Shown here piece after piece: positions 54,001-57,000 of a stretch of DNA of 64,000 bases. Every line of letters starts with the position of its first letter. The stretch's first letter is position 1. The stretch covers positions 12,276,001 to 12,340,000 of the forward strand of contig NC_047015.1 in NCBI RefSeq assembly GCF_902652985.1, read 5' to 3'. Origin of the DNA: Pecten maximus (taxonomy: Eukaryota). The position numbers are program-made.

Positions 54001-57000
54001 GTCTGATGCATAGGATGATTTACATTGTCAGGTTAGCAGGCCTGAACTCCCTCAATTCTCTGAGAATGGTGGCGATGAAATCTAATTATAAAACAGTGCA
54101 CCTTCAACATTTAGCTCTAGTCATGTGCAATTTTCTTTGATAATGTGACTACCTAGTGTCATAAAAGCTGTATGTTATATTTGCTTTCTCAATGGGATCA
54201 TCCAGGTGTTATAATGGTTGTTTATATATATATTAATGTTTTCTCAGTGGGACCATGTGTACCCTGGTGTCATAACATATGGTTGTTTATATATATATAT
54301 TAATGTTTTCTCAGTGGGACCACCCTGGTGTCATTATAGTTGTTTATATATATATTAATGTTTTCTCAGTGGGACCACCCTGGTGTCATTATAGTTGTTT
54401 ATATATATATTTATGTTTTCTCAGTGGGACCACCCTGGTGTCATTATAGTTGTTTATATATATATATTAATGTTTTCTCAGTGGGACCATGTGTACCCTG
54501 GTGTCATAACATATGGTTGTTTATATATATATATTAATGTTTTCTCAGTGGGACCACCCTGGTGTCGTAATGGTTGTTTATATACATATTTATGTTTTCT
54601 CAGTGGGACCACCCTGGTGTCATTATAGTTGTTTATATATATATTAATGTTTTCTCAGTGGGACCACCCTGGTGTCATTATAGTTGTTTATATATATATA
54701 TTAATGTTTTCTCAGTGGGACCACCCTGGTGTCATTATAGTTGTTTATATATATATTAATGTTTTCTCAGTGGGACCACCCTGGTGTCGTAATGGTTGTT
54801 TATATATATATTAATGTTTTCTCAGTGGGACCACCCTGTGGGTGGTCGTAATGGGTTGTTAATATATATTAATGTTTTCTCAGTGGGGGACCACCCTGGT
54901 GTCATTAAAGTTGTTTATATACATATGTATTGTTTTCTCAGTGGGACCACCCCTGGTTTCATTATAGTGGTTATATATATAATAAATGTTTTCTCAGTGG
55001 GACCACCCTGGTGTCATTATAGTTGTTTATATATATATTAATGTTTTCTCAGTGGGACCACCCTGGTGTCATTATAGTTGTTTATATATATATTAATGTT
55101 TTCTCAGTGGGACCACCCTGGTGTCATTATAGTTGTTTATATATATATATTAATGTTTTCTCAGTGGGACCACCCTGGTGTCGTAATGGTTGTTTATATA
55201 TATATTAATGTTTTCTCAGTGGGACCACCCTGGTGTCGTTATGGTTGTTTATATATATATTAATGTTTTCTCAGTGGGACCACCCTGGTGTCATTAAAGT
55301 TGTTTATATACATATTTATGTTTTCTCAGTGGGACCACCCTGGTGTCATTATAGTTGTTTTTGATGTGACAAACGAGACATCTTTCTCAAGTTGCGCGAA
55401 GTGGTTAGAACGGGTGCGATCACAGAAGCCAGATGTACACATGCCAGGTAAGTGTTTCCATATTCAATTATACATGTATATTCATTGAAAATACTAATGC
55501 ATAGGTCACCTGCACCTGAGACGAAGTCTCAAGTGACATTTTCTAATCACCTTTTGTCATTCATCTTGCCAAAGGAAGTCACATTTTTGACGGTCATTTT
55601 TAAAAATTTCTATTGGAATTCATTCTAACTTGGTTCAAACCAGCAGCATGGGATGACAGTTTGATAGCATGCCCATGTTGGTCCTAACTGATCCCATGGG
55701 CTGATGGACGGGACCAAAAAGGGTCAAATTAACTTAATTATTTCAAAACTCAGGTGACAGCTAAGGCCCATGGGCCTCTTGTTAAATATATTACATCTAT
55801 AGATGTTTTAATGCTATGTAATAATTTTCCGTTATTCTGATTAGGACAATGAAATAAGGTCTGTTAAACAACCCCAGTAGACAATTACTGTCAAAATAAT
55901 ATAGATTGGAATGTCCAGTACCACAGCTATATCGATGGAAGGGAGACAACTATAACTGCTGTAAATTTTGAGTGGAAAATACATGGTTAGGGAAAGATAA
56001 TGTAAGGATGATGATATAGGGATCTAAAATAAGATATATGTGGTTATTGGTGGGTCACAGAAAGTCTCTCAAATTCCACCTATTTATTTCTGGTTAAGCC
56101 CTGCAATGATTTTTTAAAATGTGATTTTCTGGTTTTACTGAAGCAGTTATCCATATATTAAATGTTCTGTTGTACAGGAGTTCTGATAGGAAACAAAATT
56201 GACTTGGAACAGAGACAGGTGATCAGCCCAAAGGCTGCCACACATTTTGCTGAATCGAATGGCCTGAAATACTTTGAGTGTTCTTCTGTAAGTAAATAAA
56301 CTTGAGCTGTGAAAAGCATATAAAATACTTAATTATAAATATCCTGTCAATGAGAAGTTTATTGTCACAAATCATACTGTCCAGTAGTCCAATTACTATA
56401 CAATGTGTTACTGGTGATAAGTTCAAGACAGGGCACACACATTATGTACAGTTTGTATGTTAGATGTTCTCAATTCTCAAACTGGGTAAAGTTTAATATC
56501 CACTATATTTATTTAAGTGTATTTTGTGGGTAACTACTGGGTAATTATTTCATAAATTAATGCATCTCTGAAATGGTAATTTAAAAAAAAAAAAAAAAAA
56601 ACATAGAGGTTAGGCCTAAAAATGTTTCTGATTATACAGCATATGGTTTATATCATAAACAATTAACTACATTTCATATTGATGGATGATTTTCTAGTTT
56701 AAAATAATCTTCTTATGCAATCGATTTTGTGCAAAGATGTTAAATGTTTGTCTTTTATTTTATTTTACAGAAAGAATTCCAGAATGTGGAAGCGCCATTC
56801 TACTATATAGCCAATGAATTCTACAAAATCTATCAAGAACGTATTGAACATTTCAAGACACTATCCTTATGATAGATCTTCATTTTGAACAAGAGACTTT
56901 TGAAATATTGTACTCTATACATTCCTCCGTCCATCTGTTAAATAGATTTTTTATGTCCAAATAAAATTAGTATGCAACATATTATTGTGTCCTTTACTTT

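What the first reader, a model, noticed from the sequence alone, without database searches (positions are those of the whole stretch)
54181..55447. Twenty tandem copies of a real 3' splice site plus exon start in IFT27
Seen: the repeat unit is the polypyrimidine tract, CAG and the first ~31 nt of exon 5 (WDHPGVIIVV). There are 19 upstream acceptors nearly identical to the functional one at 55329/55330. The nearest two frameshift (+55, +110) and the in-frame one at +165 hits TAA at 55261-55263. Inference: correct IFT27 needs the most distal AG, against a first-AG scanning rule. It would be a natural test of exon definition, or a copy-number-tunable route to unproductive splicing and NMD in a ciliary gene.
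Basis: partly seen in the sequence, partly recalled or inferred. Interest (0 to 1): 0.72.

Follow-up and report, generated by a model that had tools for sequence, protein, structure and literature searches.

The report
Minisatellite repeating an IFT27 splice acceptor
A 55-base repeat has copied the end of intron 4 and the start of exon 5 of a scallop cilium gene about twenty times, a kind of repeat already described in lancelets ("mirages") and, on the other side of exons, in human genes, so it is a nice example and not a new phenomenon.

Summary
Window 54185-55360 is a 55-bp tandem array (20.7 copies). Its unit is the last ~24 nt of intron 4 plus the first 31-33 nt of exon 5 of an IFT27 gene. 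Exon by exon, the gene is 100% identical to NCBI's Pecten maximus IFT27 homolog. Nineteen upstream copies keep CAG. All 19 would give a premature stop if used. The annotated protein needs the last acceptor (55329/55330).

The first-AG rule runs from the branch point, and each unit carries its own branch-like motif and pyrimidine tract, so no rule is broken. Only the real acceptor is followed by exon-like sequence and a perfect donor 118 nt on. The array holds no usable donor.

The class is known: "mirages" in amphioxus, one of them on the acceptor side, and donor-side VNTRs in human F7, 6-16 and CBS. These show little or no pseudo-site use. Minisatellites cover 24% of this window.

The most likely reading is a tolerated by-product of local minisatellite activity, with at most a small NMD-cleared leak. 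It is a new member of a known kind. No transcript, read or sister-genome data could be checked.

The parts
47042..47078 (+). IFT27 exon 1, coding part (MPVTLRAKCIIV + first base of G); donor G|GTATGT at 47079
   Evidence: tblastn of P0001 against the window, 100%. The boundary was read from the sequence printed; the exon-1 row of that script was set 2 nt off and is disregarded.
51653..51732 (+). IFT27 exon 2 (P-loop GDTTVGKS...KNYTM)
   Evidence: weak Ras/Roc Pfam match
52753..52812 (+). IFT27 exon 3 (TAGVELLVKSVNIPETRDSV)
53105..53164 (+). IFT27 exon 4 (ELFLYDSAGKEIFSEHVQKY), donor TAT|GTAAGT
53165..55329 (+). Intron 4 (2165 nt); its last ~1.18 kb is the array
54147..54191 (+). Degenerate edge copy ('copy 0') of the unit, no AG in front of it
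   Evidence: nhmmer with a profile of units 2-20, E 0.021, 11.2 bits; alignment
54193..54247 (+). Edge copy 1: preceded by CAA instead of CAG. Its exon-like part reads WDHPGVIMVVY and differs from the real exon at 6 of 31 bases, all third codon positions.
54248..55329 (+). Nineteen units, each starting just after a CAG decoy acceptor. Starts: 54248, 54315, 54370, 54425, 54482, 54549, 54604, 54659, 54716, 54771, 54826, 54884, 54942, 54998, 55053, 55108, 55165, 55220, 55275.
55300..55329 (+). AG-free zone before the real acceptor, with yUnAy motifs at -24 and -12, the pyrimidine run and CAG. It is supplied by the last repeat unit.
55330..55447 (+). IFT27 exon 5 (118 nt, WDHPGVIIVVFDVTNETSFSSCAKWLERVRSQKPDVHMP+G). 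Its first 31-33 nt (55330-55362) are the last, partial repeat unit.
   Evidence: Ras, E 1.3e-5; best PDB hits IFT27
55448..55453 (+). Exon 5 donor, CAG|GTAAGT: 9 of 9 matches to the consensus, the best in the gene
56178..56287 (+). IFT27 exon 6 (VLIGNKIDL...FECSS)
   Evidence: (Ras, E 3.1e-8)
56771..56872 (+). IFT27 exon 7 with stop (KEFQNVEAPF...KTLSL*)

Best explanation
This is a 'mirage'-type minisatellite. A 55-bp piece spanning the intron 4/exon 5 boundary of the scallop IFT27 gene was duplicated in tandem and then amplified by unequal exchange. It is a by-product of very active local minisatellite formation and has no function of its own. Productive mRNA joins 53164 to 55330. The last acceptor most likely wins by exon definition. 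It is the only one followed by the real exon body (purine-rich, 52% AT) and, 118 nt on, by a perfect CAG|GTAAGT donor. The decoys are followed by AT-rich repeat and have no donor of their own. The branch point for the real site lies in the last unit, so the ordinary rule of the first AG after the branch point is obeyed. Any leak should come mainly from the nearest decoys (+55, +110). It would carry a premature stop and so be open to nonsense-mediated decay. Shown here: the array, its register with the splice site, the gene model, the stops, the lack of donors, the composition contrast and the array's history. Inferred: the selection mechanism, the small size of the leak and its decay.
For: Array and register. 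Gene model: every exon is 100% identical to NCBI's Pecten maximus IFT27 homolog P0001, and exon 4 to exon 5 is colinear with the full-length mollusc orthologues. Exon 5 matches Pfam Ras, and its best PDB hits are IFT27 (8ruy_Q, 2yc2_C). Stops: 19 of 19 decoys meet a stop before the donor; 5 of the 19 are in frame (165, 222, 504, 726, 960) and still hit stops. Donors: none of 129 GT dinucleotides in 54193-55329 matches the donor consensus at more than 5 of 9 positions, whereas the exon-5 donor matches 9 of 9 and the donors of exons 2, 3, 4 and 6 match 6-7 of 9. Composition of +32..+118: 14 purine-rich hexamers, 4 GAR and 52% AT after the real site; 2-7, 0-1 and 63-74% after the 19 decoys. No structure masks the decoys: the fold of 55053-55460 has z = +0.48, and 69 of 100 shuffles fold at least as well. 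Background: 19 arrays cover 15,559 of 64,000 nt (24%), and 2,074 of 9,831 nt of the gene span; 1 of 12 splice junctions is covered. So an array over a junction is not improbable here. Turnover: groups of identical units (u03=u08=u10=u15=u16; u05=u09=u17; u02=u06; u11=u18) alongside diverged edge copies, as described for mirages. Precedent: amphioxus mirages, including acceptor-side BflGb6, leave regular splicing intact (passages of PMC3087553 and PMC3902484). The F7 pseudo-sites are silent (abstract and passages of PMC1557585).
Against: I could look at no transcript data, so distal-site dominance rests on a database protein model and on colinearity with orthologues. One decoy (54604) is identical to the real site over -31..+31, and 15 more differ at only 2 of 23 positions. 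So nothing local favours the real site. The nearest decoys would give exons of 173, 228 and 283 nt, sizes that exon definition normally accepts. In 6-16 and CBS the two nearest pseudo-sites are used constitutively, so a real leak is plausible. Old duplicated-site experiments, as summarised in PMC1557585, found use of the 'proximal' copy only, and that debate is unsettled. All 19 interior copies keep their AG. The acceptor core is not clearly more or less variable than the rest: 9 of 42 distinct variants against 12.2 expected, P = 0.18. Counted by cells it is 15 of 81 against 23.6 expected, P = 0.02, but those cells are not independent and insertion columns were assigned crudely. So there is no clean signature of selection either way. 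The NMD rules of bivalves are not known to me.
Confidence: 0.72

Rival explanations
1. One reading: the array is a copy-number-tunable attenuator. A sizeable, length-dependent share of IFT27 pre-mRNA is spliced to decoys and destroyed by NMD, and this sets the dose of a ciliary GTPase.
For: Nineteen of 19 decoys give premature stops at least 83 nt before the exon-5 donor, with two more junctions downstream. Decoys are near-identical to the real site. Every decoy keeps its AG. In 6-16 and CBS the nearest pseudo-sites are used (passages of PMC1557585).
Against: There is no transcript evidence. Searches with a 51-aa array-derived peptide found no protein carrying it: none among longer proteins, none among near-length ones, and only two unrelated repeat proteins among representatives. 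That is weak, because truncated isoforms are rarely deposited. Decoys lack exon-like downstream sequence and donors. Amphioxus mirages and F7 show no aberrant product. One unnamed relative reads from exon 4 to exon 5 through about 91 codons without any repeat, and a second shows 38 codons before exon 5 without one (P0005, P0004). So the array is not a conserved device. The window is full of unrelated arrays.
Confidence: 0.12
2. Assembly artefact: the array is absent, much shorter or of a different length in the real genome, for example a mis-consensus of noisy long reads or a mixture of haplotypes.
For: Units 12-14 (54826-54997) are irregular, with 1-3-nt indels, several in G or C runs. If the window comes from the published P. 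maximus assembly, that was built from PacBio Sequel continuous long reads with wtdbg2 and polished with short linked reads (passages of PMC7191990). Short reads map poorly inside such an array. The amphioxus BflGb6 mirage was 'aberrantly assembled' in its draft genome.
Against: At 1.2 kb the array is far shorter than such reads. It has at least five distinct unit types in a patterned order and diverged edge copies merging into unique intron, which an artefact would not produce. Similar arrays cover 24% of the window. The exact copy number may still be wrong or polymorphic.
Confidence: 0.06
3. The array helps splicing. Reiterated branch/pyrimidine modules act as a landing pad that raises the local concentration of 3' splice-site factors, or supplies the branch site, for a real acceptor that is weak on its own.
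For: The real acceptor's candidate branch motifs (-24, -12) and its pyrimidine run lie in the last unit. The pyrimidine content of -20..-4 is moderate (0.71).
Against: One unit would be enough for that. Relatives do without an array. Nothing in the papers I read suggests such a role. It is pure inference.
Confidence: 0.04

Closest known systems
[quoted passage not shown] I saw passages of PMC3087553 and PMC3902484. The founding paper (Canestro et al. 2002, cited there) is not held.
   Same: A tandem array whose unit spans a splice junction. BflGb6 repeats the 3' end of an intron plus the 5' part of the exon, as here. Many units keep AG/GT. The authentic copy sits at the array edge. Units evolve in concert inside the array and the edge copies escape. 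The genome is rich in minisatellites. Regular mRNA is reported to be unaffected.
   Different: The host is a mollusc, not a cephalochordate. The unit is shorter (55 bp against 150-160 bp in BflGb6) and there are far more copies (19 live decoys against 3-6 units). No RT-PCR or polymorphism data exist here. My searches turned up no mollusc case.
Human donor-side splice-site VNTRs: F7 intron 7 (37 bp, 5-9 units), 6-16/IFI6 (25 pseudo-sites), CBS intron 13, LMNB2, PDGF. I saw the abstract and passages of PMC1557585.
   Same: A minisatellite whose edge unit spans an exon boundary, so that the authentic site is reiterated exactly in the intron. The site next to the exon body is the one used. The pseudo-sites are functional but silent, or only the nearest two are used.
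   Different: Those arrays reiterate the 5' splice site downstream of the exon. Here the 3' splice site is reiterated upstream. So the used site is the last to be transcribed, not the first, and a 5'-to-3' scan starting in the exon cannot explain the choice.
NAGNAG and other closely spaced tandem acceptors (recalled; not looked up)
   Same: Several AGs compete for one exon.
   Different: Those lie 3 to about 12 nt apart, share one branch point and usually keep the frame. Here the spacing is 55 nt, each AG has its own upstream signals, and all outcomes are nonsense.
Decoy or poison exons and unproductive splicing coupled to NMD (recalled; not looked up)
   Same: Intronic splice signals whose use would give a stop-containing, degradable transcript.
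   Different: A decoy or poison exon needs an acceptor and a donor. The array has no GT above 5 of 9 matches to the donor consensus. There is no evidence of conservation or regulation.

Membership tests
Mirage minisatellite (tandem duplication of an intron-exon boundary) | Head-to-tail array with a minisatellite-sized unit | tested here: met
   Period 55, 20.7 copies, score 1726; 21 registered anchors
Mirage minisatellite (tandem duplication of an intron-exon boundary) | The unit spans a real exon-intron junction, so that the splice signal plus part of the exon is reiterated | tested here: met
   The unit is about 24 nt of intron end plus 31-33 nt of exon 5. The junction at 55329/55330 is fixed by the 100% exon-by-exon match to P0001.
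Mirage minisatellite (tandem duplication of an intron-exon boundary) | The authentic copy is the edge unit, contiguous with the rest of the exon | tested here: met
   The profile matches 55330-55362 as positions 1-33 of the unit, followed by unique exon
Mirage minisatellite (tandem duplication of an intron-exon boundary) | Concerted evolution inside the array, with edge units left out | tested here: met
   Identical unit groups inside the array. Copy 1 is 73-91% identical to the others, and copy 0 is barely detectable.
Mirage minisatellite (tandem duplication of an intron-exon boundary) | Regular mRNA is still made; repeats do not give aberrant mRNA | not testable with these tools
   Only indirect: NCBI's protein model uses the distal site and is colinear with orthologues. 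No transcript data were on hand.
Mirage minisatellite (tandem duplication of an intron-exon boundary) | Length instability or polymorphism between haplotypes | not testable with these tools
   One sequence only; no reads and no second haplotype
Donor-side splice-site VNTR (F7 / 6-16 / CBS type) | The first monomer spans the exon-intron (5' splice site) boundary | tested here: not met
   The array ends at 55360-55362 inside the exon's 5' part. The donor at 55448 is single-copy.
NAGNAG / closely spaced tandem acceptors | Competing AGs a few nucleotides apart behind one branch point (definition recalled) | tested here: not met
   Spacings are 55-67 nt
Decoy / poison exon | An intronic acceptor paired with a usable donor (definition recalled) | tested here: not met
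   None of 129 GT sites in the array has 6 or more of 9 matches to CAG|GTAAGT
IFT27 (RABL4) small GTPase gene | Ras-like GTPase whose closest relatives are IFT27 | tested here: met
   Exon 5: best PDB hits are IFT27 8ruy_Q and 2yc2_C, E about 2e-4. Pfam Ras matches exons 5 and 6. There is 100% identity to the NCBI-named IFT27 homolog of Pecten maximus.

The most novel reading that the evidence does not exclude
Array length sets IFT27 dose, and the array also edits the protein. The nearest decoys capture a copy-number-dependent share of transcripts, which NMD removes. Because the exon's first 31 nt evolve in concert with the array (identical to 9 of 19 decoys), a change that arose or spread in the repeats (ATG to ATA, Met to Ile, in a conserved strand of the GTPase) has been carried into, or out of, the working exon. 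Older units still hold the ancestral-looking WDHPGV(V/I)MVVY.
Probability: 0.12. Interest if true: 0.55.

Novelty: new member of a known kind. Interest (0 to 1): 0.3.

Why it matters
If the array is real and polymorphic, it is the most extreme acceptor-side case I could find of a reiterated splice site: 19 live copies, one of them identical over 62 nt. It is the mirror image of the F7 system that was used to argue for 5'-to-3' scanning of donors. On the acceptor side the used site is the last to be transcribed. That separates 'first come, first served' and scanning models from exon definition in a natural gene. It also shows that mirage-type repeats are not confined to lancelets. They may be expected wherever minisatellites are abundant, which matters for gene prediction in bivalve genomes. 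The practical weight is modest. The phenomenon is described, and the published precedents suggest little effect on mRNA.

Tried and rejected
1. RNA structure hiding the decoys. The fold of 55053-55460 is no more stable than shuffles (z = +0.48), so this was rejected.
2. A known RNA family in the window. Rfam gave none at gathering scores.
3. The unit as a dispersed or transposon-derived satellite that supplied the exon start. There are no copies outside the array in 64 kb, and the exon part encodes residues conserved in IFT27 orthologues. Rejected: the array derives from the gene.
4. Pseudo-exons inside the array, or re-splicing after decoy use. There is no usable donor, and the exon-4/decoy junction does not recreate a GT (read from the sequence). 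Rejected.
5. A gene on the other strand. No minus-strand open frame of 60 aa or more overlaps the array. The only one in intron 4 (53568-53816) lies upstream of it and was not examined further.
6. Selection for or against the decoy acceptor core. The test was inconclusive.
7. Deposited proteins carrying array-derived peptide, as a trace of decoy use or of the array in other assemblies. None was found. The two representative hits, P0013 and P0014, are unrelated repeat proteins sharing a WDH motif.
8. The listing of cluster members on P0001, to see isoforms and other scallops.
9. The founding mirage paper. It is not held.
10. One literature search returned nothing because of its phrasing.
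Full report
WHAT IS THERE. Window 54185-55360 is a head-to-tail array with a 55-bp period: 20.7 copies, 88% matches, score 1726. Anchoring on the acceptor core gives 21 registered sites. Their exon-like starts run from 54193 to 55275, followed by the real exon start at 55330. The spacings are 55 nt in 12 of 20 cases, and otherwise 56-58 or 67 nt. A 28-nt core of the unit occurs 16 times at up to 3 mismatches, only inside the array, against none in 100 shuffles. Each unit is a TA-run, then TTAATG, then TTTTCTCAG, followed by TGGGACCACCCTGGTGTCATTATAGTTGTT. 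That is the end of an intron plus the start of an exon. A profile of units 2-20 also detects a degenerate copy at 54147-54191 (E 0.021). It matches the real exon over unit positions 1-33 (55330-55362) and finds nothing elsewhere in the 64 kb. The window has no N.

THE GENE. I searched the model exon by exon and left the joined step out. Exon 5 (55330-55447) matches Pfam Ras (E 1.3e-5). Its best solved relatives are IFT27 chains (8ruy_Q and 2yc2_C). A 40-residue translation of 55330-55449 finds 12 proteins. The best is NCBI's 'intraflagellar transport protein 27 homolog [Pecten maximus]' (P0001, 188 aa, 100% identity). Comparing P0001 with the window places all seven coding exons at 100% identity (boundaries checked):
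- 47042-47078
- 51653-51732
- 52753-52812
- 53105-53164
- 55330-55447
- 56178-56287
- 56771-56872

So the window is scallop DNA, not human. The four full-length mollusc orthologues read ...VQK(F/H/Q)|WDHP... or ...LPTF|WDQP... without any insertion. A working protein therefore needs the most distal AG.

WHAT DECOY USE WOULD DO. Nineteen upstream sites keep CAG. The 5'-most (54193) has CAA, and copy 0 has no AG. I translated from each decoy in the exon-4 frame. All 19 of 19 reach a stop inside the lengthened exon, 83 to 1089 nt before the exon-5 donor. Five of the 19 are in frame (extra 165, 222, 504, 726, 960 nt) and still hit TAA.

WHAT SETS THE REAL SITE APART. Locally, almost nothing does. 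In the -20..+3 window one decoy (54604) is identical; it matches the real site over 31 nt on each side. One more has one mismatch, 15 have two, and 2 have six or eight because of TA-run indels. Nine of 19 share all 31 first exon bases. Further out the difference is large:
- The real site is followed by 87 nt of unique exon with 14 purine-rich hexamers, 4 GAR triplets and 52% AT. The decoys have 2-7, 0-1 and 63-74% over the same span.
- The real exon ends in CAG|GTAAGT, 9 of 9 matches to the donor consensus and the best donor in the gene. The donors of exons 2, 3, 4 and 6 score 6-7 of 9. The exon-1 row of that script was set 2 nt off and is disregarded.
- None of the 129 GT dinucleotides in the array exceeds 5 of 9 matches.
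- No RNA structure hides the decoys (z = +0.48).

THE SCANNING RULE. Nearly every unit carries yUnAy motifs at -24 and -12 and its own pyrimidine run. Between the last decoy and the real site the only AGs are 55298 and the real 55328. A branch point in 55300-55320 therefore yields the real AG by the ordinary rule. The open question is which of about 20 equivalent branch/acceptor modules is engaged. That is a question of exon definition and competition, not of AG scanning.

HISTORY OF THE ARRAY. Inside the array many units are identical: u03=u08=u10=u15=u16, u05=u09=u17, u02=u06 and u11=u18. Several unit types recur in a patterned order, which is the mark of multi-unit unequal exchange. The 5' edge is older. 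Copy 1 is 73-91% identical to the others, and copy 0 is barely recognisable. Both have lost the AG.

Read directly from the listing, copy 1 differs from the real exon at 6 of 31 bases, all at third codon positions, and encodes WDHPGVIMVVY. That is exactly the peptide of the unnamed mollusc protein P0006. The 'B' units encode WDHPGVVMVVY, which fits the consensus WDHPxVVMVVYD of the 12 aligned sequences. The real exon and the commonest units read VIIVV, and the real exon alone has F where every repeat unit has Y.

So the repeats hold older versions of the exon start, and the working exon's first 31 nt evolve together with the array. I could not decide whether the Met-to-Ile change began in the exon or in a repeat. 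Six of six third-position differences has P = 0.0014 under uniform change. It has P of about 0.09 if half the changes fell on a constrained exon lineage. This is suggestive, and the sample is small.

Two unnamed relatives speak to the age of the array. P0005 reads from exon 4 through about 91 codons to exon 5 without a repeat. P0004 shows 38 codons before exon 5 without one. The array is therefore lineage-specific at that distance.

BACKGROUND. Nineteen minisatellite arrays (period 10 or more, 3 or more copies) cover 15,559 of 64,000 nt (24%), and 21% of the IFT27 span. One of the 12 splice junctions is covered. With arrays this dense, one over a junction needs no special explanation. What needs explaining is only that it is tolerated.

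WHAT IS KNOWN. Tandem repeats that span an exon-intron boundary were named 'mirages' in amphioxus (Adh3; then troponin C, globins, PGBD5). BflGb6 repeats the 3' end of an intron plus the 5' part of exon 2: 150-160 bp units, 3 or 6 of them depending on haplotype. It shows concerted evolution with edge units left out. RT-PCR suggested regular splicing is not disturbed, although many units keep AG/GT (passages of PMC3087553 and PMC3902484).

On the donor side there are several human cases (abstract and passages of PMC1557585). The human F7 intron 7 VNTR has 4-8 identical pseudo-donors that stay silent. 6-16 (25 pseudo-sites) and CBS use the two nearest as well. LMNB2 and PDGF use only the authentic site. 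In every case the site next to the exon body wins.

The present array passes each mirage feature I could test. It fails the definitions of donor-side VNTR, NAGNAG and decoy exon (see the membership table). My searches found no mollusc example and no acceptor-side array with this many live copies. That is a statement about those searches only.

MECHANISM AND RIVALS. My best reading, at 0.72, is a tolerated by-product of minisatellite turnover. The distal acceptor is chosen by exon definition (exon body plus a perfect donor). A minor leak from the +55 and +110 decoys would be nonsense and open to NMD. The rivals are:
It is possible because the nearest decoys would give acceptable exon sizes of 173-283 nt, and 6-16 and CBS do leak. 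There is no evidence for it here.
- An assembly artefact or a wrong copy number (0.06). Units 12-14 are irregular. If the window is from the published assembly, that was built from noisy long reads and polished with short reads (passages of PMC7191990). But the patterned unit types and the decayed edges look biological.
- A helper role for the reiterated branch/pyrimidine modules (0.04).

NOT CHECKED. Searches with a 51-aa array-derived peptide found no deposited protein that carries it. That is weak evidence either way.

VERDICT. This is a new member of a known kind, the mirage-type splice-junction minisatellite. It is notable for its copy number and for lying on the acceptor side. Interest 0.3.

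Noticed in passing
54193-54225 versus 55330-55362: Edge copy 1 differs from the real exon start at 6 of 31 bases, all third codon positions. It encodes WDHPGVIMVVY, identical to an unnamed mollusc orthologue (P0006). The 'B' units encode the mollusc consensus VVMVVY. The repeats look like fossil versions of the exon, and the working exon (VIIVVF) shares its derived Ile codon with the commonest units.
   Followed up: partly
54826-54997 (units 12-14): This is the most irregular stretch of the array, with 1-3-nt indels, several in G or C runs. It could be older units or residual long-read consensus errors. The exact copy number and sequence here should be treated with care.
   Followed up: no
51783-52680: A second minisatellite in the same gene (53 bp x 16.7, with a 374-bp higher-order period) starts about 50 nt after the exon-2 donor. 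It does not include the junction.
   Followed up: partly
whole window: Minisatellites are exceptionally dense: 19 arrays cover 24% of 64 kb. They include 43 bp x 107 at 32467-36948, 26 bp x 62 at 20059-21654 and 45 bp x 35 at 25202-26778.
   Followed up: partly
45601-46593 (-): A single open frame of 330 aa has ankyrin repeats and a C-terminal SOCS box (Pfam Ank_2 4.7e-22, SOCS_box 1.9e-12). It lies head to head with IFT27 exon 1, about 450 bp away, which suggests a shared bidirectional promoter region.
   Followed up: partly
60714-62102 (+) and 62778-63224 (-): A reverse-transcriptase open frame (RVT_1, below Pfam's cut-off) is followed by a GIY-YIG nuclease frame. This is the layout I recall for Penelope-like retroelements. 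A second GIY-YIG frame lies in the opposite orientation just downstream.
   Followed up: partly
55445-55453: The exon-5 donor is a perfect CAG|GTAAGT, the only 9-of-9 donor in the gene. This may be what lets the exon tolerate the reiterated acceptor.
   Followed up: partly
3215-4621 (-), 249-1157 (-): Long open frames (468 and 302 aa) have no Pfam match or only a sub-threshold PH-domain match. They may be exons of an unexamined gene or repeat-derived.
   Followed up: no
58717-59391 (+): Two adjacent arrays (52/105 bp and 30 bp units) are open for 140 and 81 codons. The second reads as repeats of a ten-residue motif, ADHAQQNHPS. Their coding status is unknown.
   Followed up: no
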